Both the position numbers and the translations under genes were made by a program. This document shows positions 4,146-20,707 of a DNA stretch of 64,000 bases, piece after piece. The DNA lies in IMG/VR virus record IMGVR_UViG_3300025254_000001. One strand, 5' to 3'. The notes under the pieces are model-generated. The model saw only the letters and a list, made by a program, of their open reading frames with translations. It was not told the origin of the DNA and did no database searches. The stretch's first letter is position 1, and every line of letters begins with the position of its first letter. The stretch comes from a virus.

Positions 4146-4188
4146 AGGCCGGCGCGTAGCTCAGGGGCGCGCCGGCCCTTCCTTTTTC
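4146..4188 (+). terminator. Intrinsic terminator after the capsid gene
   Basis: 10-bp GC stem GGCCGGCGCG/CGCGCCGGCC with an 11-nt loop, then CTTCCTTTTTCT. Confidence 0.6.
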
Positions 4189-4203
4189 TGGAGGCCCTCT
4201 TTC

Positions 4204-7438: not shown

Positions 7439-8049
7439 CAGCTGCCTTCACGATCGCGCGCCTGTGGCCGGAAGAGACCGTCGCGGTGCTGGCCAGCGGG
7501 CCGAGCATGTCGGCCGACGTCGCCCGCCAGGTGTTCGACGCGATGGTCCCGGCGATCGTCATCAACAACACCTTCCGGCTGGCGCCCTGGGCCGGCATGC
7601 TCTACGCGGCCGATGGCGCCTGGTGGCGCGCGAACCCTGACGCGCTCGCCTTCCGCGGCCTCAAGGTCACGGTCGACGACGTCGCCGGCACGCGCAAGCT
7701 GCGCATCAGCGGTCCCGGCGGGTTCGACCCGCACCCGGGCGCGGTGCGCTCGGGCGGGCACAGCGGCTACCAGGCGGTGCACATCGCGATCCATGGCGGC
7801 GCGCGCCGCATCCTGCTGTGCGGCTTCGACATGCACGGCACGCACTGGCACGGGCCGCACGTCGAGCCCCTGCGCAACACCGCAGCCGGCACCTATGGGC
7901 GCTGGGTCGAGCGCTTCGCCGAGCTACAGGAGCCGGCCCGGGAGCGCGACATCGAGATCCTGAATTGCACGCCGGGCAGCGCGCTCAAGTGCTTCCCGAT
8001 GGTCGACCTGGCCGACGCGCTGGCCGAGCGAACATGCGCCGCGCGCTGA
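7435..8049 (+). CDS. Putative glycosyltransferase-like protein (DUF115/sialyltransferase-like GPS motif)
   Basis: 204 aa. LASGPSMS...VINN...YAADGAWW...SGGHSGYQAVHIAI..LLCGFDM pattern. ATGA overlap with the collagen-like gene stop. The family call is tentative. Confidence 0.4.
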   Translation: MTAAFTIARLWPEETVAVLASGPSMSADVARQVFDAMVPAIVINNTFRLAPWAGMLYAADGAWWRANPDALAFRGLKVTVDDVAGTRKLRISGPGGFDPHPGAVRSGGHSGYQAVHIAIHGGARRILLCGFDMHGTHWHGPHVEPLRNTAAGTYGRWVERFAELQEPARERDIEILNCTPGSALKCFPMVDLADALAERTCAAR

Positions 8050-8795
8050 ACTTGCTGCGTGAGTCGCTCCACTACCGGCGAGGGGCATTCGACGCTGGCC
8101 TGCAGGCGAACGGGTTTCGCCTGACGCACCATCTTCCCGACCCCGAGCCGGGCGACCTGCTGCTGATCTGGAATCGGCACGGCGGCGACCACGAGACCGC
8201 GCTGCGCTTCGAGGCGGCCGGCGCTCGAGTTCTGGTGGCCGAGAACGGCTACCTGGGCAAGAGCTGGCTCGGCGGCAAGTGGTTCGCGCTCGCCTGGAAC
8301 CACCACAACGGCGCGGGCACCTGGCCTGATGGCGGCCCGCAGCGTTGGCAGGCCCTCGGCGTGGAGCTGGCCCCCTGGAAGCTCGATGGCGACGTGAACC
8401 TGGTCTTCGAGCAGCGCGGCATTGGCGAGCCGGGTGTCGCGTCGCCGCGGGGCTGGGCGGGCCGGGTCGCGACGCGCGTGCATGGCCGCATCCGCTGGCA
8501 CCCGGGCGCCGCGGCGCCGGCGGTCAAGCTCGAAGATGAGCTGGCCGACGTCTGGCAATGTTTCACGTGGAATAGTGGAGCAGCGCTGCTCGCGCTGATG
8601 CGCGGCGTGCCGGTGTTCTACGACTGCCCGACCTGGATTGGCGCGGGCGCCGCGCTGCCGCTGTCCGAATTCGGCAAGCAGGAACCGCGGCGCGACGACG
8701 CGGCGCGCTTGGCAATGTTTTGCCGAATGGCCTGGGCGCAATGGACGCTCGACGAGATCCGCAGCGGCGAGGCGCTCTACCGGCTGCTGCGATGA
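8034..8795 (+). CDS. Putative capsule-type (KpsS/KpsC-like) glycosyltransferase
   Basis: 253 aa with an ENGYLGKSW-type motif reminiscent of Capsule_synth proteins. Overlaps the upstream gene by 16 nt. Confidence 0.4.
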   Translation: MRRALNLLRESLHYRRGAFDAGLQANGFRLTHHLPDPEPGDLLLIWNRHGGDHETALRFEAAGARVLVAENGYLGKSWLGGKWFALAWNHHNGAGTWPDGGPQRWQALGVELAPWKLDGDVNLVFEQRGIGEPGVASPRGWAGRVATRVHGRIRWHPGAAAPAVKLEDELADVWQCFTWNSGAALLALMRGVPVFYDCPTWIGAGAALPLSEFGKQEPRRDDAARLAMFCRMAWAQWTLDEIRSGEALYRLLR

Positions 8796-9643
8796 ATCCC
8801 TCGCGTCTTCTCTTCACCGGACGGGGAACCTCCGGCAGCTGGTCCATTCGCGGCGAGCAGCTCGGCCACGCGCTGGGCGCGAACGTGATCCCGGATGCGC
8901 GCCACCTTGGGCGCTTCGACCTGGCGGTGCTGGTCAAACGCGCGACGCCTGACCTGCTGACCTGCCTGCGGCTAGCCAAGATGCCCATCGTCTGGGACAT
9001 CGTCGACAGCTGGCCGCAGCCGCTGGGCAACACCTGGGACAAGTCGGCCTGCCTGGCGTGGCTGCGCCTGCAGGTCAAGCACATCCGGCCGGTCGCCCTG
9101 GTCGCGGCCACCGAGGCGATGGGCCTGGACTGCCAGGAGTTCGGGCTTCCCGTGCTGGTGCTGCCTCACCACGCCCGGCCTGGCCAGCGCGTGAATCCGA
9201 TCCGCGAGCGTGTGCGAGCCGTGGGCTATCAGGGCGGCGTGCAGTACCTGGGCTCGTGGGCCGCGGGGCTCGAAGCGACGTGCCGCGCGCGCGGCTGGCG
9301 CTTCGTGGTCAACCCGGTCGAGCTGGCCGAGCTGGACATCGTGGTGGCCGTGCGCGAGCCGATCGGCTACGCCCCGCGGACCTGGAAGTCGGGCGTGAAG
9401 GCGGCCAATGCCCAGGGCAGCGGAACGCCCTGCGTGCTGAACCGCGAGATGGGCTACATCGAGACCGCGTGCGGCGCCGAGCGCTGGGCGGACACGCCCG
9501 CCGAGATGGACGCCGCGTTCGACTCGCTCATCGAGCACGACACCCGCCTGCGCATTGCCGGCCAGCTTCAGCTGGCGGCGCCGCGCCTGGACGACATCGC
9601 GAGGGCCTACTCGGCGTGGCTAAACGGACTGTCGAGATCCTGA
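8792..9643 (+). CDS. Putative GT-B-like glycosyltransferase
   Basis: 283 aa. ATGA overlap with the upstream stop. The C-terminal region looks like a sugar-nucleotide-binding domain (KAANAQGSGTPCV). Confidence 0.4.
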   Translation: MNPSRLLFTGRGTSGSWSIRGEQLGHALGANVIPDARHLGRFDLAVLVKRATPDLLTCLRLAKMPIVWDIVDSWPQPLGNTWDKSACLAWLRLQVKHIRPVALVAATEAMGLDCQEFGLPVLVLPHHARPGQRVNPIRERVRAVGYQGGVQYLGSWAAGLEATCRARGWRFVVNPVELAELDIVVAVREPIGYAPRTWKSGVKAANAQGSGTPCVLNREMGYIETACGAERWADTPAEMDAAFDSLIEHDTRLRIAGQLQLAAPRLDDIARAYSAWLNGLSRS

Positions 9644-9675
9644 GCGTCAAGCCGCCGTCGCCGGCGGCCGTGCCG

Positions 9676-10413
9676 ATGCTCGACGCGCTCAGGAAGGCGG
9701 CGGTCCAGTGCGGCGACGCGGTGCGGCTGACCAGCCGCTACGAGGGTCGAAGCGACTGGCTCGTGCTGTACGGCGTGGGCTACGGAGCGCACGACGACGC
9801 GCGTCGTCGGCAGGTGCTCCGCGGCGGCCATGCAGCGCTGCTCGATCTGGGCTACTTCGGCAAGGCCAAGGATGGGCTCGGCTACACGCGGGTCTCGGTC
9901 GACCGGGACCACCCGCAGCACCTGCTCGATCGCGCGCCGGCCGACGCGGCGCGCTGGGCGCGCCATGACCTGGCGCTGCGCGATGAGGCGGACCCGGCCG
10001 GCCCCATCGTGCTCGTGGGCCTCGGGCGCAAGTCGCGCGAGTACCTCAAGGCCAGCGATTGGGAGGGCCGCAAGCTGGCCGAGCTGCAGGAGCGGTTTCC
10101 TGGGCGGCGGATTCTCCATCGCCCCAAGCCGAAGCAGGAGTTCGTGAGGCTGAGCTGCGATCGCGACGTCACGACGCCGATCGCGCAGCTGTTGCACGGC
10201 GCCTCGCTGGTGGTCTGCAGGCACTCGAACGTGGCGATCGACGCCGCGGTGGCGGGCGTGCCCATCGAGGTCGAGGACGGCGCAGCGCAGTGGCTCGCGG
10301 CGCGCGAGTTCACGCGCGCCAACCGGCTGGACTTCCTGCAGCGCGTCTCGTGGTTTCAGTGGCAGCCGGGCGAAGCGCCGGAGGCCTGGCAATTCATCAA
10401 GGGGCTCGGATGA
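9676..10413 (+). CDS. Putative glycosyltransferase-like protein
   Basis: About 245 aa. The C-terminal LLHGASLVVCRHSNVAIDAAVAGVPIEV resembles a GT-B C-terminal motif. Start uncertain (GTG 9670 or ATG 9676). Confidence 0.35.
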   Translation: MLDALRKAAVQCGDAVRLTSRYEGRSDWLVLYGVGYGAHDDARRRQVLRGGHAALLDLGYFGKAKDGLGYTRVSVDRDHPQHLLDRAPADAARWARHDLALRDEADPAGPIVLVGLGRKSREYLKASDWEGRKLAELQERFPGRRILHRPKPKQEFVRLSCDRDVTTPIAQLLHGASLVVCRHSNVAIDAAVAGVPIEVEDGAAQWLAAREFTRANRLDFLQRVSWFQWQPGEAPEAWQFIKGLG

Positions 10414-10928
10414 GGCTGAAGTTGAACGTCTGCTGCGGCGGGCGCGTGCTGGCGGGTTGGACGAACATCGACATCGTCGCGAGCGAGGGCGCGCTGGCGC
10501 CCGACATCCTGTGCGACGCGCTGAAGGTGCCCCTGCCCGACGCGTGCGCCGTGGAGATCATGTGCATCCATGGGTTCGAGCACTTCCACCGGTGGGATTG
10601 CGATGCGCTGCTCGAAGAGTGGAAGCGCATGCTCCTGCCTGGCGGCCTGCTAGTGCTGGAGCTGCCCAACCTGGCCAAGTGCTGCGAGAACATCCTCAGC
10701 GGCTTCACGGGCGCGGGCAAGCACCCCGACCAGGCGGGAATGTGGGGCCTGTACGGCGATCCGCGCATGCGCGACCCGTTCATGTGCCACCGCTGGGGCT
10801 GGACGCCTGATTCGCTGCGTGCGATCTTGGCCGAACACGGGTTCGAGAAGATCCGCGAGGAGCCCACGCAGCACCATCCGGCCGGGCGCCTGCACCGCGA
10901 CATGCGCATGGTGGCGCGCCTGCCCTGA
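10410..10928 (+). CDS. Class I SAM-dependent methyltransferase
   Basis: 172 aa. LNVCCGGRVLAGWTNID...LLPGGLLVLELP motifs. ATGA overlap with the upstream stop. Confidence 0.7.
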   Translation: MRLKLNVCCGGRVLAGWTNIDIVASEGALAPDILCDALKVPLPDACAVEIMCIHGFEHFHRWDCDALLEEWKRMLLPGGLLVLELPNLAKCCENILSGFTGAGKHPDQAGMWGLYGDPRMRDPFMCHRWGWTPDSLRAILAEHGFEKIREEPTQHHPAGRLHRDMRMVARLP

Positions 10929-10936
10929 GCGCTCGC

Positions 10937-11608
10937 ATGCTGCACGTCTTTTTCGGCCACGACGAGCGCGCGGAGGCCGGAACCACCGCGTTCATGCACT
11001 CGGTGATCGCGCGCGCGACGCAGCCGCTTGCGTTGACGCCGATCACGCGTCTGGCCACGGCCGGCGTCAAGCAGGGCAGCAACGCGTTCACGTTCCGGCG
11101 CTTCCTGGTGCCGTGGATGCTCGACTACCGCGGCTGGGCGGTGTTCGTCGATGGCGCCGACATGCTGTGCCGTGCCGACATCAGCGAGCTGTTCGACCTG
11201 GTCTATCACAACGATGCGGTGCGGGTGGTCAAGCACGCGTACCGCACGCGGCACCCGCGCAAGTACCTCGGCACGCCGATGGAGTGCGACAACCCGGACT
11301 ATGAGCGCAAGCAGTGGGCCAGCGTGATGCTGATCAATTGCTCGCACTACGCCTGGCGCCACGTGACGCCGGAGTTCGTGGCCGAGTCGAATGCGCTGGA
11401 CCTGCTGCAGCTGCGGTTCATCCCGGCCGAGCGCATCGGGTCGTTGCCCAAGGAGTGGAACTGGCTCTGCGATGAGGACGGCGAGAACGTCGACGCGAAG
11501 CTGCTGCATTTCACCGCGGGCATCCCGGCGTTCCCCGAGCACGCGCGCGCGCCGATGGCCGAGGAGTGGCGCGCGGCGCTGCGCGCCTCGTCCACCGCAA
11601 CAGGCTGA
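10937..11608 (+). CDS. Glycosyltransferase family 8-like protein
   Basis: 223 aa with GT8-like layout (HVFFGHDE..., VFVDGADMLCRADISELF, LLHFTAGIP). Confidence 0.55.
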   Translation: MLHVFFGHDERAEAGTTAFMHSVIARATQPLALTPITRLATAGVKQGSNAFTFRRFLVPWMLDYRGWAVFVDGADMLCRADISELFDLVYHNDAVRVVKHAYRTRHPRKYLGTPMECDNPDYERKQWASVMLINCSHYAWRHVTPEFVAESNALDLLQLRFIPAERIGSLPKEWNWLCDEDGENVDAKLLHFTAGIPAFPEHARAPMAEEWRAALRASSTATG

Positions 11609-11613
11609 AAGCC

Positions 11614-12294
11614 ATGAGCAACCCCAAGATCATCACCTACCCGACCACCGAGCCGATCACGCTCGAAGAGGCGCACCTGCACCTGCGGCTCGATGTCTAC
11701 GACAGCCCGCCGGTGCACCCCGACGATCCGCTGATCCTGGGACAGATCACGGCCGCGCGCGAATGGGTCGAGAAGTTCACCGGCCGCTGCATCGTCCCGT
11801 GCGTGCTGGAGCTGGCGCTCGATGACTTCCCGCACCACCAGCGCAGCAGGCATCGCTTCACGGGCTGGCTCGCCCATGCGTACCACCTGGTCGACGGGGG
11901 CTGCGCGATGCCGATCCGGCTTCCGGGCGGCCCGGTCGTCGCGCTGGAGAGCGTCACCTACGTGGACGCCGCGGGCGTCGAGCAGACCTTGACCGACGTC
12001 CAGTTCGACACCCACGAGGAGCCGGCGCGCGTGCTGCCCGCGGTGGGCGCGACCTGGCCGGTGGCGCAGCAGCAGATGGCGGCCGTGCGCGTGCGCTACG
12101 CCGCCGGCTACAGCGCGCCCGGCGACTCGCCCAACCCGGCCCCGCTGCCCGTGCCGATCAAGATGGCGATGCTGCTGGTGCTCGGGCACCTGTACGAAAA
12201 CCGCGAGAACACGACCGACGTCGCGCTGACCGAGGTGCCGCTGGGCGCCGTCGCGCTCTTGCGGCCCTACCGGCTCGAATCGGCGATGGCCTGA
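11614..12294 (+). CDS. Head-tail connector (gp6-like) protein
   Basis: 226 aa. The N-terminal ITLEEAHLHLRLD motif is typical of gp6-like connector / DNA-packaging proteins. It is the last gene of the head block. Confidence 0.65.
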   Translation: MSNPKIITYPTTEPITLEEAHLHLRLDVYDSPPVHPDDPLILGQITAAREWVEKFTGRCIVPCVLELALDDFPHHQRSRHRFTGWLAHAYHLVDGGCAMPIRLPGGPVVALESVTYVDAAGVEQTLTDVQFDTHEEPARVLPAVGATWPVAQQQMAAVRVRYAAGYSAPGDSPNPAPLPVPIKMAMLLVLGHLYENRENTTDVALTEVPLGAVALLRPYRLESAMA

Positions 12295-12325
12295 CGCCCG
12301 CCGGCGGTCCATCAGCAACCTCTAC

Positions 12326-12500
12326 GCGCCGGCCGCGGCGGTAGGCAAGGGCAATCGATCGGGTTTTCCGATCCTCGCGGCCTGGCGGTAGGCGGCGACT
12401 AGGCAATTCGTCTGGCCTATGCGCGGGCCAGGCACCGTAGGCGGTGCCAATCGGTTGATTTCAGCTAAGTCCGCGGGTTGGCGGTAGGCGGAATCTGTCG
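12326..12500. repeat. Four iteron-like direct repeats, core GGCGGTAGGC
   Basis: Cores at 12337, 12384, 12433 (CACCGTAGGC) and 12480, spaced 47/49/47 bp. Most are followed by CAATCG/CAATTCG. Confidence 0.65.
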
Positions 12501-12605
12501 ATGAATTGCAGCTATAAACGCCGACCTGAATTAGACCGGAGTAATCGGCTCCGGCGGCCAGGGCGCAAAAATAATATCTATCCTCGGCGGCTCGAATTAG
12601 TTCAC

Positions 12606-12804
12606 GCCAAAAATATCGGCGCGCGGATTTAATAGACCTCAGCTTTTGCACAATATTTAAGCGGTGCACTTCTAAGCTATTGATTTAATTGAGAAAAACG
12701 TCTTCGATAGCTGAGTTTTCGCGAGGTGGGTAAGGGGGTTGTGGGGCCAAAGCGAAAAATCGCTTGGCGGGCCTTTACGCGCGTTTTAGCGGGGTGTGAT
12801 TTCG
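12606..12804 (+). repeat. AT-rich non-coding element, copy A (paralog of 56172-56348)
   Basis: Aligns with copy B: GCCAAAAAT..CGGC..TTAA..CTAAGCTnTTGATTT..TCGAnAGC..AGGTGG.AAGGGGTT.T.GGGCC..CGAAAAATCGC..TTTACGC. Indels break any common reading frame. Confidence 0.7.
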
Positions 12805-12907
12805 CACAGTAGTTCGCCGGCGCGCGTCGTGCAATTAATTGAAATCTTGAGCGGAGAGACTTGACAATGGCCGGAATTCGTTGGCGGTTTGCGCGAGTGG
12901 GGTCGGC

Positions 12908-13270
12908 GTGAGGGCCGGCCAGCTCAACGCCCGCCTGGTGGTCGAGCGCCCCGGGGTGTCGCGCGACGACATGGGCTCCGAGCTGATCACGTGGGTGAAG
13001 GTCGCCACCGTCTGGGCGCACATCGCGCCGATCGTTCCCGCGCGCGGGCGCGAGCCGCTGCTGGCCGACCAGCTCCAGGGCCAGGCCGACACCCGGATCA
13101 CGATCCGCTGGTCCGATCAGATCGACGGCATGTCGGCCAAGTGGCGCCTGCGCTTTGCCACGCTCAAGAACCCGATCATCTACAACATCGCGACGCCGCC
13201 CGCGCAGCTCGACATGGGCCAGCGCACGGTCGTCATCATTTGCAAATCCGGCGTCAATGAGGGGCAGTGA
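12908..13270 (+). CDS. Head-tail adaptor (head-closure) protein
   Basis: About 120 aa. AGQLNARLVVERP...WVKVATVWAHI...RITIRW pattern is typical of SPP1 gp16/HK97-like adaptors. GTG 12908 preferred over TTG 12881. Confidence 0.7.
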   Translation: MRAGQLNARLVVERPGVSRDDMGSELITWVKVATVWAHIAPIVPARGREPLLADQLQGQADTRITIRWSDQIDGMSAKWRLRFATLKNPIIYNIATPPAQLDMGQRTVVIICKSGVNEGQ

Positions 13271-13740
13271 TGGCCACCACGCGCAGCGTGCAGGTCTCGG
13301 GCCTGCGTGAACTCGGCGAGTCGCTCAAGAAGCTGGGCACGGATATGCAGTCGCGCGTTGCGCGTCGTTGCACCAATGCAGGCGCCCAGGTCGTCAAGAA
13401 GGCGGCGATTGCGGCGGTCAACGACCCGCGCGCCAAGAAGCCCTACCGGGTCGGGGATGAGCTGGTCTTCCCGGGCAACATCAGCCGCAACATCATCGTC
13501 AAGCGCATCCCGCCGGGGCAGACCGACCTAACGTCTGAGCACATCGTCGCGGTGCGTGGCAAGGCGGCGCATGGCTTCGCGTCTCACATCGCGGCCTGGC
13601 AGGAATTTGGCACCGTGAACATGCCGGCCAAGCCGTTCATGACGCCCGCCTTCGATGCGAGTCAGGGCGACGCGCTCCAGGCGATGACCGACTCGCTGCG
13701 CGAGGACATCGCGGACGGCGTGAAGAAGGCGGGGGCCTGA
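13267..13740 (+). CDS. HK97 gp10-family neck protein
   Basis: 157 aa, positioned after the adaptor. Start overlaps the upstream stop. Confidence 0.65.
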   Translation: MMATTRSVQVSGLRELGESLKKLGTDMQSRVARRCTNAGAQVVKKAAIAAVNDPRAKKPYRVGDELVFPGNISRNIIVKRIPPGQTDLTSEHIVAVRGKAAHGFASHIAAWQEFGTVNMPAKPFMTPAFDASQGDALQAMTDSLREDIADGVKKAGA

Positions 13741-13744
13741 CCTG

Positions 13745-16066
13745 ATGACCGCGCCGCTCATCCTCTATACGGACTGCATCGACGGTCCGACTACGGGGGG
13801 CGAGGGCGGCAAGGGCTGCTACCTCGGCGTCTTCGGCACGGGCTTCGGCACCTTCGCGGATTGGGGCGTCTCCAACCACCTGACTATCGACGGCGTCGAG
13901 GTCGACAACTACCGCTGCCTGGACGCCGCGGTCGGCGTGGCCCTCCATGGCCCGCAGATCCAGCGCCTGGAGGTGCAGGTGGGCGCGCTGGGCGCGCCCG
14001 CGCCCGGCACGCCGCTGGCGATCGACATGACCGTGGGCGGCGTCAGCCCGTCGAACCCGACGTCGGGCGGTTTCCTGCTCGACCCCGTCGATGGCGAGGT
14101 GCTGTCGTTCACGCGTTCGCTCGTGGGGATCGTCTTCGTGGACCCGGCCACGGGCAGCAACTCCAACCCGGGCACGATCGCCTCACCGCTGGCCAACCTG
14201 CAGTCGGCGGACGCAGCCGCAGGGGCGATCCGCGCGGCGTCGGCATCGAACGCCACCGATGGCAGCCCGCCGCAGCACGTCATCCTGCGCGGCGGCTTGC
14301 ACCCGCAGCTCGGCTCCTCATCGACGCCGACTCGCAACTACGGCAGCTTCGCCAACCTGTTTCGCAATAGCGGCGCGCGCCCGCTGGGCGGCGCGAACCA
14401 GGGCAACCTGGTGATCAAGAGCTACCCGGGCCCGGCCGGCGCCAACGCGCCCGAGCTGGCGCGCTTTGAGCCCACCAGCGGCAACCACGCCGGCGCGGGC
14501 ATCCTCGGCAACGATTCCGCACGCGGCTCGCACGCGGGCTCGCCCGAGACCAACCCCTACGATGGCGATCCTGGTTGGGGCCGCGACTGGGTGCTCTCCT
14601 CGGTCAAGATCGCGAGCGCGCCGGACGCGCCGCGCGATGGCGCGCCGGTCAACTTCGATTCCGACGCGGACCGCTGCCGCCTGGTCAACTGCGACCTGGC
14701 CTGGCCCAGCACGCTGGGCACCTCGGGCGGCAACAACGGCGCCAAGGGCGGCGGCTTCACCGGCAACGGGTTCAAGCTGCGGGTCTATGGCCTGTATGTG
14801 CACAACGTCACCAATGGCGACGATGCGAACCAGAACCATGGTGGCTACATCGACGGCTCGAACGTCTGCGCCAAGAACCCGATCGTCGCCTACTGCCGCT
14901 TCGAGGACTGCAGCGGCGGCAACAGCTTCCAGACCTTCGACTCGCAGGCGTCGGACGTCATCACCGACCTGCGCTTCCACCACAACTCGGCGTTGCGCTG
15001 CAACAAGCACAACGTCAACGTCTCGCAGAACACCGAGAGCGGCGAGGTCCACGACAACATCCTGGTCGACGCCGGCGAGGCCAACATCCACGTCGAGGGC
15101 GGCCAGATTGCGGTCGCGGCCGGGGTCAAGTTCTTCAACAACACCTGCGTCGACTGGGGCCGGGTCATCGCTGGCCGGCCGTGCTTCTGGAACGATGGCG
15201 GCACCGGCTCGGGTTCGGTCGATTGGCGCAACAACATCGCGATGCGCCGCGCGGGCGCCGCTGGCACCGGGCCCTTCGTCATCTTCGACATGGACGGCAC
15301 GAACGCGTCCACGCACAACCTCTACTTCGACGCCACGGGCGTGCTGACCGGCGTTCCCGGTGGCGACACCGGCAGCGTCTATGGCGACCCGTTCTTCAGC
15401 GACCCGGCCGCCAACGACTTTTCGATTCAAGCCACCAGCCCGCAGAGCCCTGTGATCGACGCCGGCGCTTCGACGCTGACGGCGCGCACGCTCGCCTACC
15501 TGTTCAACGCGGTCGTGGCCCCGCCCGACGTCGGAGCCTACGAATTCGCGTCCGGCGCGCCCACGCCGTCGCCTTCACCGCCGCCCCCTTCACCGTCACC
15601 GCCGCCATCTCCTTCGCCGCCCCCGTCGCCCACGCCGTCGCCGGCACCCACTCCCGCACCGTCGCCACCTCCGGCGCCCACCCCGATGCCCTCCCTTTCG
15701 GTTCCGCAAGCCATCTTCGCGGCGCTCCGATCGCTGGTCGACGATCGCGTCTACCCGAACACGTTCCCGCAGGGAGACCCGCTGCCTGTGTGGCCCGCGG
15801 TGCGCTACACGATCGTGTCCACCAACCCGGCGCCAACCGTGTGCGGCAGTGACGGCGAGGACATCGATGACGTGACGGTGTTCATCGACGCCGTGGCGGT
15901 GACCTATCCCGCGATGCGGGCGCTGAAGGCGCAGGTGATCGCGGCGCTGGAAGACACCGATCCACCGTGCGTGCGCCAGAGCGGCGGCACCGAGACCTTC
16001 GACGGCGAGACGCGCACGAATCGCGCGATCTTGACCTACCTGTTCCAGCAGTCCTCGGCGCCGTAG
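13745..16066 (+). CDS. Fusion protein: IPT-like domain, right-handed beta-helix, Pro/Ser/Thr linker, DUF3168-like tail-terminator domain
   Basis: 773 aa. Beta-helix-type repeats (NHGGYIDGSN..., RFHHNSALRCNKHNVNV..., HDNILVDAGEANIHVEGG). Linker PSPSPPPPSPSPPPSPSPPPSPTPSPAPTPAPSPPPAPTP. The C-terminal ~125 aa (IFAALRSLVDDRVYPNTFPQ...VFIDAVA) look like DUF3168. Confidence 0.7.
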   Translation: MTAPLILYTDCIDGPTTGGEGGKGCYLGVFGTGFGTFADWGVSNHLTIDGVEVDNYRCLDAAVGVALHGPQIQRLEVQVGALGAPAPGTPLAIDMTVGGVSPSNPTSGGFLLDPVDGEVLSFTRSLVGIVFVDPATGSNSNPGTIASPLANLQSADAAAGAIRAASASNATDGSPPQHVILRGGLHPQLGSSSTPTRNYGSFANLFRNSGARPLGGANQGNLVIKSYPGPAGANAPELARFEPTSGNHAGAGILGNDSARGSHAGSPETNPYDGDPGWGRDWVLSSVKIASAPDAPRDGAPVNFDSDADRCRLVNCDLAWPSTLGTSGGNNGAKGGGFTGNGFKLRVYGLYVHNVTNGDDANQNHGGYIDGSNVCAKNPIVAYCRFEDCSGGNSFQTFDSQASDVITDLRFHHNSALRCNKHNVNVSQNTESGEVHDNILVDAGEANIHVEGGQIAVAAGVKFFNNTCVDWGRVIAGRPCFWNDGGTGSGSVDWRNNIAMRRAGAAGTGPFVIFDMDGTNASTHNLYFDATGVLTGVPGGDTGSVYGDPFFSDPAANDFSIQATSPQSPVIDAGASTLTARTLAYLFNAVVAPPDVGAYEFASGAPTPSPSPPPPSPSPPPSPSPPPSPTPSPAPTPAPSPPPAPTPMPSLSVPQAIFAALRSLVDDRVYPNTFPQGDPLPVWPAVRYTIVSTNPAPTVCGSDGEDIDDVTVFIDAVAVTYPAMRALKAQVIAALEDTDPPCVRQSGGTETFDGETRTNRAILTYLFQQSSAP

Positions 16067-16092
16067 TCGACCCTGCACCACCCGTACCCTCC

Positions 16093-16147
16093 GCCGGCTT
16101 CTTCGCAGTTGCCGGCTCTTTATGCCCGCCTCGTGCGGGCTTTTTTT
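16093..16147 (+). terminator. Tandem intrinsic terminators upstream of the major tail gene
   Basis: GCCGGC...GCCGGC hairpin, then GCCCGC-CTCGT-GCGGGC followed by TTTTTTT. Confidence 0.6.
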
Positions 16148-16171
16148 CGTCCCTTCGAAAGGAGCCCCGAA

Positions 16172-16834
16172 ATGAGCGGCGGCAAGCGATTCAAGTTCCA
16201 AGGCAGCACCATCGCGGTGTCCATCGGCTTCGATGCGGTCTCGCCGTCCAAGGCGATCACCGGCATCAGCAAGGCCAACCCTGCGGTCGTCACCAGCGCG
16301 GGCCACGGCTTCGTCGATGGCGACGTCGTGCTGATCACCGGCGTGGCCGGCATGACCGAGGTCAACGCGGGGGTCTACATCGTGGACGCCTTGTCTTCGA
16401 GCACCTTCGCGCTCGTCGACACCGATTCCACCGCGTGGGGCACCTACACCAGCGGCGGCCACGCGGACGAGGCGCAGTTCTCGAACTGGTGCGAACTCAC
16501 CGGCTACAACCACCAGGGCGGCACCAAGACCGAGAACGACGCGTCGAGCCTGTGCTCGACCGCCAAGGAATACGAGCTGGGCCTGGCCGACTTCGGCACG
16601 ACGCAGTTCGACTTCCACTACGCGCCGCAGACGTCCATCCAGCTCGCGATGGCCGCCTACAACATCAGCGGCGACCCGATCGCATGCAAGGTGACGCTGC
16701 CCAAGTCGGGCGGCGTGCGCACGCAGATCGGCTTCATCACCCAGATGTCCGAGACGGCTTCGGTCAACGGGCTGTGGACGGCCACGATGACCATCCGCAA
16801 CACCGGCAAGCCGTTCGACCAGGCGGGTGCCTGA
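16172..16834 (+). CDS. Major tail (tube) protein
   Basis: 220 aa with SD AAAGGAG upstream. It sits before the chaperone and tape-measure genes and is Thr/Gly-rich like a tube protein. Confidence 0.7.
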   Translation: MSGGKRFKFQGSTIAVSIGFDAVSPSKAITGISKANPAVVTSAGHGFVDGDVVLITGVAGMTEVNAGVYIVDALSSSTFALVDTDSTAWGTYTSGGHADEAQFSNWCELTGYNHQGGTKTENDASSLCSTAKEYELGLADFGTTQFDFHYAPQTSIQLAMAAYNISGDPIACKVTLPKSGGVRTQIGFITQMSETASVNGLWTATMTIRNTGKPFDQAGA

Positions 16835-17163
16835 TGAACCGCGAGGACCTGATCGCGGCGATGCAGGCGACTGCGTCTCCCAAGCCGGTGGCGGTGGAAG
16901 TGCCGGCTTGGGGCACCGTCTACATCAAGCCGCCGACCGTCGAGGAGGTCGATGCGGCTTCCGAGAACGTCGACCCGGACGACGGGAAGAAGCGCCGCCT
17001 GGCGCGGGCCGCCGCGCGCGTGATCTGCGACGAGCAGGGCAACCGGGTCTTCGACCCGGCCTCGGCGCCCGACGTCGAACTCCTCGCGGTGCAGCCATGG
17101 GCAATGCTGCAGCTGGTGCTGGCCGCCGCGGACGGCCGAAAGGCTGGCGACTCGGGAAACTGA
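16834..17163 (+). CDS. Tail assembly chaperone (G-like)
   Basis: 109 aa, immediately upstream of the tape measure. Ends in the slippery site G GGA AAC TGA. Confidence 0.75.
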   Translation: MNREDLIAAMQATASPKPVAVEVPAWGTVYIKPPTVEEVDAASENVDPDDGKKRRLARAAARVICDEQGNRVFDPASAPDVELLAVQPWAMLQLVLAAADGRKAGDSGN

Positions 17164-17480
17164 GTCCGCGCCGCGAATTCCTGTTCGACCTGGCGCTCGC
17201 GCTCGGTCAGCCAGCGGGCGCGTTGGCCCGCGTGCTGCCCGAGTCCGAATTCCGGGACTGGCAGCGATACGCGGCGCGGCGCATGTTGCCCGCGCGCCGG
17301 GTCGAGCTGTACCTCGCCCAGATCGCGCTGCTGATCGACACGAGGCTTGGCAGCGCCAAGGACGTGACGCTCTCGGACTACCTGTTCGACCCGGTCGAGC
17401 CCGATGACGACGACGAACCCACTGCGGATGAAGAGGCGGCCTTCTTCGCCTTCAACCCGCGCAAGCCAAAGGAAACCTGA
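16834..17480 (+). CDS. Tail assembly chaperone -1 frameshift product (G-T-like)
   Basis: The -1 frame stays open from the slippery site to 17480, the tape-measure start. The extension ends in an acidic tail (DPVEPDDDDEPTADEE). Confidence 0.65.
17154..17160 (+). promoter_or_regulatory. -1 programmed ribosomal frameshift heptamer GGGAAAC
   Basis: X XXY YYZ pattern is in the correct zero frame (tcG GGA AAC tga). Confidence 0.7.
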
Positions 17481-20400
17481 TGGGCGCGAACGTAGGCGCG
17501 TTGACCGTAGCGCTCGGACTGGACGCCGCGCAATACACCGAAGGCCTGACCAAGGCCGACGTGCAGGCGCAGCAGTTCGCGCAGCAGCAGACGCGCACCC
17601 AGGCCTCGATCGATAGGACCGTCGCGTCGCTGGCCAAGCAGGCCTCGCAGATCGGCCTGACGACGCGCGAGATCAAGCTGCAGGCGCTCGCGGCCAAGGG
17701 CGCCAGCGACGCGCAGCTCGCCTCGGCCGACGCGTCGCTCAAGGCGCTTGAGGCCGCCGCCGAGGCGCAGAAGAAGAACTCCCATGAGGCCGAGCAGGCC
17801 GGCAGCATTCTGGACCTGTTCGCCGGCAAGACCGCGCGTGCCCGGTCGGAGCTGATCGTTCTTTCGCATGAGCTGTCGCAGGGCAATTTCAAGCGGGCCT
17901 TCGGCTCGTTCCAAGTGCTCGCTGAGTCGGCCGGCGCGACGGGCGCGATCTTCAGCGCGACGTCCGCGATCATCCTGGCCAGCGCCGCGGCGATCGGCAC
18001 GCTGGTCTTCGCCGCGATCAAGGGCGCTGAAGAGAGCCACGCGCTGGCGCGCGCCATCGAAGAGACCGGCAACGCCGCGGGCCTGACCGAGGGCAAGTTC
18101 AACGACTTGGCAACCGCGCAGGCCAAGCAGACGAACACCACGATCGGTGCGACGCGCGAGATCCTGCAGTCGCTGGCGGCCAGTGGTCGCTTCACCGGCC
18201 AGGCGCTGACCGCCGCGGGCACCGCCGCCGCCTTGTTTTCCAAGGCCACCGGCTCTTCCGCCGAGGAGGCCAGCAAGGAATTCGTTGGCCTGGCCGACGA
18301 CATCGTCAATGGCGCCGATCGGATGAATCGGCAGTACCACTTCCTCGACGCGTCGCAGCTGCTGTACATCACGCGGTTGCACGAGCAGGGCGACGAGCAG
18401 AAGGCCTTCGTCGTCGTGGCTGACGCCTTGACCGAACGGCTCAAGGGCGTGTCGACCAACCTGGGAACGCTCGAAACGGCCTGGCAGAAGATCAAGAACG
18501 CGGCCAGCGGCGCCTGGGACTCGATGCTCAACATCGGGCGCACCGAGACGGTGGAGCAAAAGCTCGCCGGCGTGGAAAGTCAGCTCGATGCCGCGCGCAA
18601 GGGTTCGAGCTTCGTCGGCACGCAGCCCTCCAGCACGCGTCCGCCCTCGATCTATGACGTGCAGGCGCCGCCGGCGGGCCGCGCGCCCTCGATCTATGAC
18701 GTCCAGCAGCCGACCGCCGCGCAGCAGGCGTCGATCTACAACACCGGCGGTGCCGTCGCCGAGCTGCAGGCGCGCCAGGCCAGCCTGCAGGATGAGCTGA
18801 AGCTGCAGAACCGCATCGCCGAGTCGCAGGCCGACAAGGTCCGCCACGACGAGGCCGAAATCGCGGTCATGCACCTGAAGGAGGCGAGCCTCACCAAGCA
18901 GGAGAAGCTGACGCGCGACCTGGCCAACGCGAACGCTACCTTCGACCGCGCTGGCCGCGCGCAGGACGACCCCGAGCGCCTGAAGGTGCTGGCCGACATT
19001 CGCGAGAAGGCCTTCCCGGCGCACGATCAGAAGTCGACGCTGGACCTGGACGTCGCCAGGATCAAGGCCGCCGCGCAGGCCGAACAGGAAATCTACAAGA
19101 CGTCCGATCAGGTCTTCAGCGCGCTGCGCGCGGCGGGCTTGATCGACGAGCAGCACTACTACGAGGAAAAGCTCTTCCTGCTCCAGGCCAATGCGGCGGT
19201 GGAAGAGAAGGCGCTGAGCGACGAGATCGCGCGCCGCAAGCAGCAGGTGTTCACCGGCGCCGACGCCGCGAACAAGTCCAACGAGAACGCCAAGGCGATC
19301 ACCGAGGCCGAGGCCAAGCTGGCCAAGGTGCGCAAGGATGCCGCTGCGCAGGAGACCGTGCTCGCCATCGAGAGCGAGGCCGCGCAGCGCCGCCGCGCCG
19401 CCGGCTACCTGGCCGAGGAACTGGCCGCCCAGCAGTCGCTCGATGCGACCAAGCGCGCGCACGCCGAGGAGATCGCGCTCGTGGGCGTCGGTGGCGAGGA
19501 TCGCGTCCGCGCGCAAGCCATCTCGCAGATCACCGACAAGTACCAGGCCGAGATCGACCGCGCCAACGCCGACATCGCCGCCAAGCGCGTGGCCGCCGGC
19601 GGCGCCGCGACCGCCGAGGACGAAGAGGCCTATGCCAAGCGCATCGCGCTGCTGCAGAAGTTCGAGGCTGCGTCGCTGTCCGAGTGGGACGCGTACTACG
19701 CCAAGCTCAAGAAGACCGAGGAAGACGCGAGCAAGGGCTGGCAAAAGGGCCTGGCCGACTACCAGACCAACGTCGGCACCATGGCCGACCGCGTCAGCAA
19801 GGCGGTCGGCGACACGTTCAAGGGCCTGGAGGACGCGCTCGTGACGTTCGTCACGACCGGCAAGACCAGCTTCAAGAGCCTGGCGGACTCCATCGTCGCG
19901 AGCATGGTGCGCATCGCCGTGCAAGAGGAGATCACCAAGCCGCTCGCTGGCTTCCTGCAGGGCGGCTCGGCGGCGACGGCCAACAACCCGAACAGCAGCG
20001 GCCTGCTCCAGAGCTTCCTGAACCTGTTCAGCTCCACCAAGGGCACCACCACCACCGGAGGCGCCGGCGACACGGCCATGGGCAGCGCCGCCGGCGTGCT
20101 CGGTGCCGTCGATTCGCAGGCGGCCAACGCGGCGGCGGCCTCCGAGACCCAGCTCGCGACGTCGTCCACGGCGGCGGCGGCAACCATGACGACGTCGGCA
20201 GCCTCTACCGAGGCGGCGCTGGCCTCGTTGTCGGCGGCGGCGACGTCTGCGGCCTCGGCGCTGGCCACTGTGGCCGCCAACGCGACGGGCTCTTCGGGCG
20301 GTGGCGCCGGTGGCGCGGGCGGCCTCTTGGGGCTGTTCGGCGCGGGGTCCGGCAGCGGCGCGGGCGCGGGCGCGAGTGCCGGCGCGGGCGTCGTCGACAA

Positions 20401-20707
20401 CGGCAGCATCAACCTGTTCGCGGATGCGGCGCCTGGCCTGGCCATCGGCGGCCAGGCGCTGCCCGGCAAGCTGTACCCGGTCAACGAGCGCGGGCCCGAA
20501 GTGCTCGACGTCGGCGGCAAGCAGTACCTCATGACCGGCAGCTCGCGCGCGAACGTGAGCCCACTGTCGACGTCGTCGCAGTCGGCCACGCAGCGGCCGA
20601 TCCAGATCATCCAGAACTTCCCGGCCGGCACCAGCAAGGCCACCGCCGATCAAGCCGCGGCGCTGGCTGGCGCGGCGGTGCGCAAGGCTTACGCGAGGGT
20701 TCGCTGA
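17480..20707 (+). CDS. Tape measure protein
   Basis: 1075 aa, Ala-rich and coiled-coil, with a Gly-rich C-terminal region. Canonical position. Confidence 0.9.
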   Translation: MGANVGALTVALGLDAAQYTEGLTKADVQAQQFAQQQTRTQASIDRTVASLAKQASQIGLTTREIKLQALAAKGASDAQLASADASLKALEAAAEAQKKNSHEAEQAGSILDLFAGKTARARSELIVLSHELSQGNFKRAFGSFQVLAESAGATGAIFSATSAIILASAAAIGTLVFAAIKGAEESHALARAIEETGNAAGLTEGKFNDLATAQAKQTNTTIGATREILQSLAASGRFTGQALTAAGTAAALFSKATGSSAEEASKEFVGLADDIVNGADRMNRQYHFLDASQLLYITRLHEQGDEQKAFVVVADALTERLKGVSTNLGTLETAWQKIKNAASGAWDSMLNIGRTETVEQKLAGVESQLDAARKGSSFVGTQPSSTRPPSIYDVQAPPAGRAPSIYDVQQPTAAQQASIYNTGGAVAELQARQASLQDELKLQNRIAESQADKVRHDEAEIAVMHLKEASLTKQEKLTRDLANANATFDRAGRAQDDPERLKVLADIREKAFPAHDQKSTLDLDVARIKAAAQAEQEIYKTSDQVFSALRAAGLIDEQHYYEEKLFLLQANAAVEEKALSDEIARRKQQVFTGADAANKSNENAKAITEAEAKLAKVRKDAAAQETVLAIESEAAQRRRAAGYLAEELAAQQSLDATKRAHAEEIALVGVGGEDRVRAQAISQITDKYQAEIDRANADIAAKRVAAGGAATAEDEEAYAKRIALLQKFEAASLSEWDAYYAKLKKTEEDASKGWQKGLADYQTNVGTMADRVSKAVGDTFKGLEDALVTFVTTGKTSFKSLADSIVASMVRIAVQEEITKPLAGFLQGGSAATANNPNSSGLLQSFLNLFSSTKGTTTTGGAGDTAMGSAAGVLGAVDSQAANAAAASETQLATSSTAAAATMTTSAASTEAALASLSAAATSAASALATVAANATGSSGGGAGGAGGLLGLFGAGSGSGAGAGASAGAGVVDNGSINLFADAAPGLAIGGQALPGKLYPVNERGPEVLDVGGKQYLMTGSSRANVSPLSTSSQSATQRPIQIIQNFPAGTSKATADQAAALAGAAVRKAYARVR

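What the first reader, a model, noticed from the sequence alone, without database searches (positions are those of the whole stretch)
13745..16066. Beta-helix enzyme-like domain fused via a Pro/Ser/Thr linker to a DUF3168 tail-terminator domain
The slot between the gp10-like neck protein and the major tail protein usually holds a protein of about 130 aa. Here it holds a 773-aa protein. It has an IPT-like start, about 450 aa of right-handed beta-helix-type repeats (as in pectate-lyase or depolymerase folds) and a 40-aa PSPSPPPP... linker. The DUF3168-like domain follows. If the terminator forms the usual hexameric ring, six enzyme-like domains would be displayed as a collar at the head-tail junction, rather than at the tail tip where depolymerases normally sit. 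An in-frame ATG at 15686, just before the DUF3168 part, could also yield a short form, although I see no clear SD there.
Basis: partly seen in the sequence, partly recalled or inferred. Interest (0 to 1): 0.7.

Follow-up and report, generated by a model that had tools for sequence, protein, structure and literature searches.

The report
Tail terminator carrying a beta-helix cargo
In this uncultured long-tailed phage, the small protein that caps the tail and joins it to the head is fused to a large sugar-cutting or sugar-binding domain; related phages carry other cargo domains or none at the same spot, so this is probably a swappable host-sugar-binding collar at the phage neck.

Summary
ORF 13745..16066 (773 aa) consists of:
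- an N-terminal beta-sandwich;
- a right-handed beta-helix of about 400 aa (confident AF2 model; Foldseek matches GH136, GH87, K1 capsule lyase, AlgE4 and tailspikes);
- a 42-aa linker made only of Pro, Ser, Thr and Ala;
- a PF11367 (ex-DUF3168) tail terminator (38 bits against a 24.5 cutoff; fold matches the phiXa, Bxb1, GTA and lambda gpU terminators).

A sequencing artefact is unlikely. A relative with 93% identical flanks (L002) has a plain 130-aa terminator, and the window differs from it by one clean in-frame 1.93-kb segment. A second relative (L010) carries a different cargo, a ConA-like lectin/glucanase fold, joined by a poly-Pro linker at the same junctions. More distant phages have lectin-fold or fibre-repeat cargo on their PF11367 terminators.

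The fused terminator is the only copy in the window and is under purifying selection (dN/dS about 0.11). The internal ATG at 15686 lies where stand-alone terminators start, but it has essentially no Shine-Dalgarno pairing, so a short form is unlikely.

Best reading: six glycan-active domains tethered at the neck, working like lactococcal neck passage structures but fused directly to the terminator. This is a new variant of a known kind. Virion incorporation and enzyme activity are untested.

The parts
13267..13740 (+). Upstream neighbour: Neck1 / tail-completion (HK97 gp10-like) gene, 157 aa
   Evidence: PF04883 E=1.9e-6; phrog_5 E=1.4e-19.
13724..13744 (+). Translation initiation region of the fusion gene. 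It is the same intergenic/SD region that drives the stand-alone terminator in relatives.
   Evidence: Anti-SD duplex energy -8.6 kcal/mol. Colinear with the L002 and L010 sequence upstream of their terminator genes.
13745..16066 (+). Whole fusion ORF, 773 aa: cargo, linker and tail terminator
13745..14140 (+). N-terminal beta-sandwich domain (aa 1 to about 132). It lacks the extra 34-138 N-terminal residues present in three homologues compared (P0002, P0014, P0019).
   Evidence: AF2 strands E5-E132 with pLDDT mostly above 87. Conserved in about 20 homologues. No Pfam TIG hit.
14141..15349 (+). Right-handed parallel beta-helix (aa about 133-535) with a conserved polar cluster: E268, D298, R312, H353, N364-H365-x-x-Y368, Q396, N425
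   Evidence: AF2. Foldseek matches to GH136 6kqs, GH87 5zru/6k0v, K1 lyase 7w1c, AlgE4 2pyg and the Det7/HK620 tailspikes. PDB profile hit 9rx2 'parallel beta-helix repeat protein' E=1.8e-5. Invariant columns.
15350..15559 (+). C-terminal cap of the cargo module (aa 536-605), ending in the family's terminal '(D)VGAYEF' motif. It resembles the 'choice-of-anchor Q' domain.
   Evidence: NF041518 scores 15.3 bits here (below the cutoff of 25) and 29.7 bits in homologue P0002. Stand-alone homologue P0002 ends at this motif. The AF2 model is low-confidence here.
15560..15685 (+). 42-aa linker (aa 606-647) made only of Pro, Ser, Thr and Ala; imperfect 6-24-nt tandem repeats at the DNA level
   Evidence: AF2 pLDDT below 50.
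13748..15676 (+). Segment present in the window but absent from the cargo-free close relative L002 (about 1.93 kb, in frame, 643 codons)
   Evidence: blastn: window 3744-13742 matches L002 1-9997 (93%), and window 15676-18567 matches L002 10003-12896. Junctions read.
15686..15688 (+). In-frame ATG (M648) at the position where stand-alone terminators start; it has no usable SD
   Evidence: Alignment with P0021-P0043. Same Met retained in L010 and P0045. Anti-SD energy -1.7 kcal/mol, against a median of -6.1 for gene starts.
15686..16063 (+). Tail terminator domain (aa 648-773), PF11367; the only copy in the window
   Evidence: PF11367 38.1 bits. 89% and 94% identical to the L002 and L010 terminators. 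Foldseek 9lbn_K TMt 0.80, plus 6tba_4A and 3fzb_A. Profile scan of all six frames finds a single hit. dN/dS 0.11-0.15.
16172..16834 (+). Downstream neighbour: major tail (tube) protein with an E1_FCCH insertion domain
   Evidence: phrog_584 E=4.9e-30; PF16190, PF08813. Start position taken from the 220-aa gene calls in relatives.

Best explanation
This is a genuine in-frame gene fusion. A carbohydrate-active module (beta-sandwich, right-handed beta-helix and cap, about 600 aa) is joined through a 42-residue proline-rich tether to the N-terminus of the phage's only tail terminator. Homologues of this module are found in the structural gene modules of other, podovirus-like phage contigs.

Shown: the domain identities, the clean cassette-like difference from a cargo-free relative, alternative cargos at the same junctions in relatives, purifying selection on the terminator domain, and the absence of a second terminator gene.

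Inferred:
- The terminator part still forms the hexameric ring that caps the tail tube and docks onto the stopper.
- Its N-terminal helix lies at the ring periphery, at the stopper interface, so six cargo domains hang out on tethers of roughly 10-13 nm as a collar or whiskers just below the capsid.
- The cargo binds and possibly cleaves a host surface polysaccharide (capsule, EPS or LPS). This would give accessory, reversible adsorption or matrix clearing about a tail length away from the tail tip.

The terminator N-terminus in this phage lineage acts as a swappable display socket: beta-helix here, a ConA-like lectin fold in L010 and P0045, fibre repeats in P0048.
For: Architecture.

Cassette behaviour:
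- L002/L003 are 93% identical at the nucleotide level up to window 13742 and again from 15676. They encode a plain 130-aa terminator.
- L010, with 82-90% identical flanks, starts with the same 'ATGACCGC' and ends with the same 'P-M-P-[ST]-LSVPQAIF' junction. In between it carries an unrelated 240-aa cargo and its own poly-Pro linker.
- That second cargo folds as a ConA-like lectin/glucanase jelly roll.
- It recurs at 39% identity on a divergent PF11367 terminator (P0045, gene slot between a 169-aa gene and the tail tube gene). It also occurs as a stand-alone gene in a distal-tail region (P0046).
- An exhaustive profile search finds further N-extended terminators. P0048 (913 aa, fibre-like 20-aa repeats) sits directly upstream of the E1_FCCH tube gene in 3 contigs. 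P0095, P0186 and P0196 are also extended.

Functionality:
- All residues invariant in 23 stand-alone terminators are kept.
- dN/dS is 0.11 between the two cargo-bearing genes.
- There is only one terminator in the 64 kb.
- The cargo keeps all 27 residues that are invariant across its 20 homologues.

Geometry: in RcGTA the terminator's N-terminal helix 1 contacts the stopper's insertion loop (PMC7296036). In roseophage R4C the terminator helices lie at the periphery of the ring (PMC10276861).

Functional precedent: lactococcal NPS collars carry CBM or beta-helix domains at the neck and bind host cells (PMC6669499).

Context: the same phage decorates its tube protein (E1_FCCH) and encodes a collagen-CBM5/12 protein.
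Against: - There are no virion data, so incorporation of the full-length protein, its copy number and its oligomeric state are unknown.
- The window's own fusion is seen in one sequence only. Its closest cargo homologue is 45% identical, and none of the cargo-A homologues found is fused to a terminator.
- The T5 terminator uses its N-terminus in subunit contacts (PMC11784142), so bulky N-terminal cargo might interfere with ring formation in some terminators.
- Sequence models of beta-helix families are below threshold. Foldseek E-values are modest (about 6e-5) and spread over hydrolases, lyases and epimerases. The enzyme class, and whether the domain is catalytic at all, is therefore undetermined.
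- A neck position is about 160 nm from the tail tip (inferred from the 1075-aa tape measure protein). That makes a role in local capsule drilling at the infection site unlikely.
Confidence: 0.66

Rival explanations
1. Two products from one gene. The full-length protein and a short 126-aa terminator (made by internal initiation at ATG 15686 or by proteolysis in the linker) are both produced. Rings are then mixed, or built only from the short form, and the cargo is substoichiometric or released as a free enzyme.
For: The Met at the family's usual start position is retained in all three poly-Pro-type fusions: the window, L010 and P0045. Pro/Ser-rich linkers are often protease-sensitive (general knowledge). 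Six 65-kDa domains on one small ring could be sterically demanding.
Against: Anti-SD pairing at 15686 is -1.7 kcal/mol, weaker than at 84% of all ATGs in the region. Annotated gene starts have a median of -6.1, and the fusion's own start has -8.6. The retained Met may simply be a relic of how the fusion arose. P0048 and P0186 have no Met at the junction.
Confidence: 0.2
2. Sequencing or assembly artefact. The real genome has two genes, a beta-helix gene and a normal terminator, and an indel in the repetitive GC-rich linker has merged them.
For: The linker is low-complexity, 80% GC and tandemly repetitive, which is the kind of sequence where indel errors occur. The window's exact protein is not present in the 5.8-billion-protein collection.
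Against: Cargo-linker-terminator ORFs in frame occur in independent assemblies with different cargos and linker lengths: P0044 in 2 contigs, P0045 in 3 contigs and P0048 in 3 contigs from different samples. The terminator part has no SD of its own. The cargo lacks the N-terminal extensions seen in three compared homologues (P0002, P0014, P0019), and it ends exactly where stand-alone homologue P0002 ends. This fits a domain-level fusion.
Confidence: 0.04
3. The cargo is displayed but is not an adsorption aid. It might act as a virion-borne matrix- or receptor-destroying enzyme that keeps particles from being trapped in EPS or cell debris. Alternatively it might be a non-catalytic steric or stability decoration of the neck.
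For: The neck position is far from the tail tip. The structural neighbours are mostly enzymes: GH136, GH87, polysaccharide lyases and an epimerase. A conserved polar cluster lies on consecutive rungs.
Against: The alternative cargos in relatives (a lectin-like jelly roll and fibre repeats) look like binding modules rather than enzymes. Lactococcal NPS modules bind host cells (PMC6669499). Nothing here discriminates binding from cleavage.
Confidence: 0.25
4. Decaying gene in a defective prophage or otherwise non-viable element. The fusion is a dead end with no function.
For: Only one observation of this exact fusion. No cultured relative: there are no hits to the terminator or to the whole region in 50,697 phage records.
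Against: The window has an intact, complete-looking structural and lysis gene set. The terminator domain is under strong purifying selection. The family-invariant residues are kept in both domains. Equivalent fusions persist across diverged phages (39% identity between the cargos of P0044 and P0045).
Confidence: 0.04

Closest known systems
Neck passage structure (NPS, collar-whisker) of lactococcal 936- and P335-group siphophages (PMC6669499)
   Same: Accessory glycan-binding or beta-helix (pectin- or alginate-enzyme-like) modules are displayed in multiple copies at the head-tail junction of a siphophage. The distal module is modular and swappable between related phages. The NPS is non-essential for infection (reported for TP901-1), and the NPS CBM of PhiA.16 showed weak host binding.
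   Different: NPS is a separate protein. Its own BppU-like N-terminal beta-sandwich is proposed to form an 18-mer ring, followed by a trimeric coiled-coil stalk. Here the module is fused covalently, through a poly-Pro tether, to the essential hexameric tail terminator. There is no coiled coil and no sequence similarity. The phage is a high-GC, GTA-like siphophage, probably of a proteobacterial host.
Stand-alone PF11367 (DUF3168 / SPP1 gp17-type) tail terminators, together with structural homologues from other terminator families such as RcGTA g8 and lambda gpU
   Same: The C-terminal 126 aa match in HMM score, fold, gene position and conserved residues. The presumed role is to cap the tube and dock onto the stopper.
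   Different: The usual size is 110-150 aa with a single domain. This one has 647 extra N-terminal residues. Only about 3% of the closest 150 cluster representatives and 1 of 80 IMG/VR loci show any N-terminal extension.
Phage tailspike and depolymerase beta-helix proteins (K1 lyase of phage NTUH-K2044-K1-1, Det7 and HK620 tailspikes) and 'evolved' Dit or major-tail-protein extensions carrying CBMs
   Same: The beta-helix fold matches. The general principle of grafting glycan-active domains onto structural tail proteins is the same.
   Different: Those proteins are anchored through an N-terminal adaptor at the tail tip or baseplate, or sit along the tube. Here the anchor is C-terminal and at the opposite end of the tail. 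Trimerisation is unknown.
T4 fibritin (wac) whiskers and the collar or decoration proteins of myophage necks (Milano, Bas63, phage 812)
   Same: Fibrous or globular decorations emanate from the neck with 6-fold arrangement.
   Different: Those are separate proteins bound to neck components, in myophages, and most are not glycan enzymes.
'Choice-of-anchor Q' beta-helix surface proteins of bacteria (NCBIfam NF041518)
   Same: The homologue family ends in this domain (P0002 scores 29.7 bits). According to background knowledge of this family (not tested here), it typically precedes interchangeable anchoring signals. Here the 'anchor' would be a virion ring protein.
   Different: The window copy scores below the cutoff (15.3 bits). 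The anchor here is a phage structural domain rather than a sorting signal.

Membership tests
PF11367 tail terminator (Tail_completion_gp17, ex-DUF3168) | Pfam HMM score above the gathering threshold | tested here: met
   38.1 bits against 24.5, E=1.9e-9, when aa 645-773 are scanned alone. The full-length scan missed it. phrog_347 'tail terminator' E=1.9e-6.
PF11367 tail terminator (Tail_completion_gp17, ex-DUF3168) | Terminator fold: beta-sheet core with an N-terminal helix and a central helix | tested here: met
   AF2 gives H653-661, strands, H721-735, strands. Foldseek: 9lbn_K TMt 0.80; Bxb1 9d94_Ia; GTA 6tba_4A; gpU 3fzb_A.
PF11367 tail terminator (Tail_completion_gp17, ex-DUF3168) | Gene position between the Neck1/tail-completion gene and the major tail protein gene | tested here: met
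   Same order in relatives.
PF11367 tail terminator (Tail_completion_gp17, ex-DUF3168) | Small single-domain protein of about 110-150 aa | tested here: not met
   773 aa here. 145 of the 150 closest cluster representatives have no N-terminal extension, and most of them are about 105-170 aa long.
PF11367 tail terminator (Tail_completion_gp17, ex-DUF3168) | Forms a hexameric ring that caps the tube and binds the stopper | not testable with these tools
   Inferred from homology, purifying selection and being the sole copy.
Right-handed parallel beta-helix / pectate-lyase-like superfamily | Sequence match to a Pfam family of the clan above threshold | tested here: not met
   DUF5123 scores 14.7 bits against 35.1; Beta_helix scores 6.6 against 25.9. 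The PDB profile hit to 9rx2 'parallel beta-helix repeat protein' has E=1.8e-5 over the last rungs only.
Right-handed parallel beta-helix / pectate-lyase-like superfamily | Three-stranded rung architecture (fold) | tested here: met
   AF2 pLDDT is mostly above 80 over aa 130-530, with regular short strands. Foldseek probability 1.0 to GH136, GH87, AlgE4 and tailspikes, and to BFVD 'Right handed beta helix region' proteins.
Right-handed parallel beta-helix / pectate-lyase-like superfamily | Identifiable catalytic residues of a specific CAZy family | tested here: inconclusive
   A conserved polar cluster is present: E268, D298, R312, H353, NHGxY364-368. No superposition on a known active site was possible, and the top hits span hydrolases, lyases and an epimerase.
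Phage tailspike depolymerase | N-terminal virion-anchor domain, with the gene in the tail-tip or fibre module | tested here: not met
   The protein starts directly with the beta-sandwich. It lacks the 34-138 N-terminal residues of three compared homologues (P0002, P0014, P0019). The gene lies in the neck module.
Phage tailspike depolymerase | Homotrimer | not testable with these tools
   Only monomer prediction was available.
Lactococcal neck passage structure (NPS) | BppU-like N-terminal ring domain and trimeric coiled-coil stalk | tested here: not met
   No long helices are predicted in the AF2 model, and the tether is poly-Pro. No PHROG or Pfam match to NPS or BppU. Features of NPS taken from PMC6669499.
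Lactococcal neck passage structure (NPS) | Distal CBM or beta-helix glycan module displayed at the neck | tested here: inconclusive
   The beta-helix module is present. Its position at the neck is inferred, not observed.
Choice-of-anchor Q domain (NF041518) | HMM score above the NCBIfam cutoff | tested here: not met
   The window scores 15.3 bits against 25. Homologue P0002 scores 29.7 bits.

The most novel reading that the evidence does not exclude
In a clade of uncultured, GTA-like, high-GC siphophages, the N-terminus of the tail terminator may be a hot-swappable display socket. Whole glycan-binding or glycan-cleaving modules of 25-85 kDa (beta-helix enzyme, ConA-like lectin, repeat fibres) would be exchanged between near-identical genomes at fixed junctions. 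This would create a second host-recognition organ at the neck that evolves like a receptor-binding-protein cassette. It would also be a natural six-copy display site that could be used to engineer phages. The Pro/Ser/Thr tether might additionally be a substrate for the glycosyltransferase- and methyltransferase-like genes in the same structural module; that link is pure speculation.
Probability: 0.4. Interest if true: 0.75.

Novelty: new variant of a known kind. Interest (0 to 1): 0.6.

Why it matters
Tail terminators are treated as minimal, invariant assembly parts. The literature held here mentions extra domains only for myophage sheath terminators and a PVC duplication (PMC11784142).

If the essential terminator ring tolerates, and repeatedly acquires, large N-terminal glycan-active cargo, three things follow:
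- The list of virion positions used for host-surface interaction grows to include a covalent neck position in phages that probably infect Gram-negative hosts.
- Neck decoration can arise by simple cassette insertion, without a dedicated collar protein.
- Annotation pipelines need to look for depolymerases and receptor-binding modules outside the tail-tip module.
- Phage engineers would gain a candidate six-copy display site with a natural linker design.

It also gives a clean natural experiment, since three near-isogenic genomes carry no cargo, a beta-helix cargo and a lectin cargo. This would allow a direct test of what neck-borne glycan modules contribute to adsorption.

Tried and rejected
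- Cultured-phage relatives: tblastn of the full protein, megablast of window 1-25000 and tblastn of the terminator domain against 50,697 phage records all gave no match. Only the portal (about 50% identity) and tube protein (about 27-32% identity over the full protein; a 55.7% local match covers only the E1_FCCH insert) have distant hits.
- PDB sequence search with the terminator domain: no hit, even at E<=10. Only fold comparison worked.
- 'IPT-like' N-terminus: no Pfam hit for aa 1-135 at E<=10. I kept the neutral term 'beta-sandwich'.
- More cargo variants: scans of metagenome contigs and genome contigs with the terminator profile returned only L010's own contig again, plus cargo-free loci. 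In IMG/VR, 11 loci with long upstream open frames proved to be start-codon-free out-of-frame read-through, not extensions.
- Second terminator gene in the window: none.
- Structured RNA or recoding signals around the gene: Rfam found nothing in 11500-17500 at E<=0.1.
- Literature: searches combining tail terminator with NPS, depolymerase, fused, neck fibers, collar, whiskers and DUF3168 found no report of a siphophage terminator carrying an N-terminal display domain. This covers only the held open-access library.
- Direction of the event (gain in the window or loss in L002): not resolved. L002's extra 'PTPTPSP' after its Met is colinear with the end of the window's linker, and more distant relatives lack it. 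This hints at cargo loss in L002 but does not prove it.
Full report
**1. Observation**

The window contains an uninterrupted ATG-initiated ORF at 13745..16066 (+) of 773 aa. The surrounding genes follow the canonical HK97/GTA-like siphophage order:
- head-tail adaptor, 11566-12294;
- head closure Hc1, ending at 13270;
- Neck1/HK97-gp10-like, 13267-13740;
- the 773-aa ORF;
- major tail protein with an E1_FCCH insert;
- the G/T chaperones;
- the tape measure protein, 17480-20707;
- DUF2460, BR0599, a 151-aa ORF that is NlpC/P60-like in relatives, and Phage-tail_3/Rcc01698_C distal tail genes.

GC3 in the cargo part (0.92) matches the neighbouring genes, so the frame is coding and not a chance high-GC ORF.

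**2. Domain identities**

Scanned alone, aa 645-773 hit PF11367 (Tail_completion_gp17, formerly DUF3168) at 38.1 bits against a 24.5 cutoff. The full protein hits phrog_347 'tail terminator'.

An AF2 model built on 42 homologues has mean pLDDT 78.7. Confidence is high for aa 1-530 and 650-770 and low for 538-643. The model shows a beta-sandwich (about 1-132), a long run of short strands, a disordered tether, and a helix/sheet/helix/sheet domain.

Foldseek against the PDB splits cleanly into two groups (BFVD agrees):
- right-handed beta-helix carbohydrate enzymes and tailspikes: GH136 6kqs, GH87 5zru/6k0v, Klebsiella K1 capsule lyase 7w1c, AlgE4 2pyg, Det7 6f7d, HK620 2vji;
- tail terminators: phiXa 9lbn_K with TMt 0.80, Bxb1 9d94_Ia, RcGTA 6tba_4A, lambda gpU 3fzb_A.

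By sequence, the Pfam beta-helix models are well below threshold, and no TIG/IPT match exists. Residues 606-647 consist only of P, S, T and A.

**3. The cargo module elsewhere**

About 20 homologues (28-47% identity) cover only aa 1-603. Most are stand-alone proteins of 610-650 aa, and the one aligned to its end (P0002) stops at the same '(D)VGAYEF' motif. The three homologues compared in detail carry 34-138 extra N-terminal residues that the window protein lacks.

Where context is available, they lie in structural modules of other phage types, with SU10- or P22-type portals. Their C-terminal end matches the 'choice-of-anchor Q' domain.

Twenty-seven columns are invariant across the family, including N364-H365-x-x-Y368 and R312. 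E268, D298 and H353 are nearly invariant. This pattern is compatible with an active site or a binding groove, but it cannot be assigned to an enzyme class.

**4. Comparative genomics: a cassette**

The terminator domain has many close stand-alone homologues of 121-152 aa.
- Contigs L002/L003 are 93% identical in nucleotide sequence to window 3744-13742 and 86-92% identical from 15676 onward. They encode a plain 130-aa terminator directly after Neck1. The window differs by one in-frame segment of about 1.93 kb.
- A second relative, L010 (IMG/VR, 59.8 kb, 82-90% identical flanks), begins its gene with the same 'ATGACCGC' and rejoins at the same 'P-M-P-[ST]-LSVPQAIF'. In between it carries an unrelated 240-aa domain and its own 'PPPPSPPPPPPSP' linker.
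- That second cargo is predicted to be a ConA-like lectin/glucanase jelly roll, with neighbours GH16 1,3-1,4-glucanase, CBM40 and the botulinum Hc lectin domain.
- It recurs at 39% identity, again with a poly-Pro linker and a retained Met, on a quite different PF11367 terminator (P0045, found in 3 contigs, in the slot between a 169-aa gene and the tube gene). It also occurs as a stand-alone gene in the distal tail region of another GTA-like phage (P0046).

An exhaustive HMMER search with the terminator profile gave 610 hits. Among the best 150 cluster representatives there were five with N-terminal extensions:
- P0048: 913 aa with fibre-like 20-aa repeats, encoded immediately upstream of an E1_FCCH tube gene in three contigs;
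- P0095: repeats;
- P0186;
- P0196: two tandem terminator domains;
- P0056: doubtful.

In IMG/VR, only 1 of 80 loci (L010) has a start-codon-bounded extension. N-terminal cargo on this terminator family is therefore rare but recurrent. In the window's own lineage there are three states: no cargo, a beta-helix, and a lectin fold.

**5. Is the fusion real and functional?**

- Independent assemblies of different fusions are all in frame.
- The window has no other terminator gene.
- The fused terminator keeps every residue that is invariant among 23 stand-alone relatives.
- dN/dS for the terminator domain is 0.11 between the two cargo-bearing genomes and 0.15 against the cargo-free one, with dS of 0.30-0.38.

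An indel artefact in the repetitive, 80% GC linker cannot be formally excluded for this single sequence, but it is unlikely.

**6. The short-form idea**

M648 (ATG 15686) sits where stand-alone terminators start. It matches P0024 exactly and other relatives to within 1-4 codons. However, the ancestral SD region now precedes the cargo's ATG. Predicted anti-SD pairing is as follows:

| Start site | Anti-SD duplex energy (kcal/mol) |
|---|---|
| Fusion ORF start, 13745 | -8.6 |
| Median of 19 gene starts | -6.1 |
| Internal ATG, 15686 | -1.7 |

The value at 15686 is weaker than at 84% of all ATGs in the region. SD-led internal initiation is therefore improbable. Leaderless-like or coupled initiation, and proteolysis in the linker, remain possible.

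**7. Mechanism (inferred)**

[quoted passage not shown] In roseophage R4C, the terminator's helices lie at the periphery of the ring (PMC10276861). A tether leaving just before that helix would therefore emerge at the outer seam between stopper and terminator.

Forty-two residues in a polyproline-II-like conformation span roughly 10-13 nm (textbook value of about 3 Å per residue). Six beta-helix modules would then form a loose collar under the capsid, about a tail length from the tip. The tail length is roughly 160 nm, estimated from the 1075-aa tape measure protein at about 1.5 Å per residue; this is an inference.

The most likely role is accessory binding to, or trimming of, host capsule, EPS or LPS. 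That could mean reversible capture, movement through a matrix, or release from debris. The same genome also decorates its tube protein (E1_FCCH) and encodes a collagen-repeat/CBM5-12 protein. This fits a virion covered with glycan-binding modules.

**8. Comparison with known systems**

The closest functional analogue is the lactococcal neck passage structure. Its distal modules are CBMs or beta-helix domains, and binding to host cells was shown for one NPS CBM (PhiA.16) (PMC6669499). NPS, however, is a separate protein with a BppU-like ring and a coiled-coil stalk, and neither is present here.

T4 fibritin and the myophage collar proteins are likewise separate proteins. Tailspike depolymerases share the fold but are anchored at their N-terminus, at the tail tip. 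Reviews of terminators mention additional domains only for myophage sheath terminators and a PVC duplication (PMC11784142). I found no report of a siphophage terminator carrying display cargo, within the limits of the held library.

**9. Verdict**

The added finding is that the fusion is one allele of a swappable cargo socket on the terminator. I rate it a new variant of a known kind (virion glycan-module decoration), with moderate-to-high interest. The enzyme class, oligomeric state, stoichiometry in the virion, and the host are all unknown.

Noticed in passing
window 12297-12908: A 612-bp low-GC island (56% against about 68%) lies between the adaptor and Hc1 genes and looks non-coding. There are stops in all + frames, and the minus-strand ORF 12322-12669 has no GC3 bias. 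It contains 3-4 copies of a 'GGCGGTAGGC'-like motif (one imperfect) between 12335 and 12495, and a TTGACA near 12865. It is present in L002 (no gene called there) and absent from L010. No Rfam hit. It might be a regulatory or origin-like element inside the structural operon.
   Followed up: partly
window 6146-11608: A block of accessory genes sits between the portal and adaptor genes. It holds a collagen-repeat + CBM5/12 protein (6146-7438), a weak MptE/Maf-like hit (7435-8049), a SAM methyltransferase (ending at 10928), a weak GT8-like hit (10937-11608) and several unknowns. Similar accessory-gene blocks, with methyltransferase or MptE-like hits, occur in the relatives L002, L004, L006 and L103. 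It could be a virion fibre plus a glycosylation system, and the Pro/Ser/Thr tether of the terminator fusion could be a substrate (speculation).
   Followed up: partly
window 16172-16834: The major tail (tube) protein carries an inserted E1_FCCH domain (PF16190, E=1.6e-11). The same domain is annotated in Vibrio phage proteins. It is shared by relatives, including the phage with the 913-aa fibre-repeat terminator.
   Followed up: no
window 2123-4126 and 4624-6234: The prohead protease (S78) and major capsid protein are fused in one 667-aa ORF, and this ORF lies upstream of the portal gene. This is an unusual order for an HK97-like head module. Relatives L002/L003 show the same arrangement.
   Followed up: no
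window 30553-31563: A GH5 cellulase-family ORF (PF00150, E=2.8e-14) lies just downstream of the phage lysozyme (29710-30159). It is a second candidate polysaccharide-active enzyme in the same genome.
   Followed up: no
L005 10384-11001; L006 9816-10004; L107 2783-5727: The Neck1-terminator-tube interval is a hot spot for extra genes in relatives. L005 has a 205-aa gene after the terminator. L006 has a 62-aa gene before it. L107 has a whole lysis-like set (GH108 endolysin, GTA_holin_3TM) inserted between Neck1 and the terminator.
   Followed up: no
P0196 (427 aa, metagenomic protein): This protein has two tandem PF11367 terminator domains after an N-terminal region of about 170 aa. A duplicated terminator could build a pseudo-hexamer from three chains, or a double ring.
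   Followed up: no
L002 10001-10024, compared with window 15674-15697: The cargo-free relative's terminator starts 4 codons upstream of the window's M648. Its extra 'PTPTPSP' tract is colinear with the end of the window's linker, and more distant relatives lack it. This suggests L002 may have lost a cargo by precise deletion rather than never having had one.
   Followed up: partly
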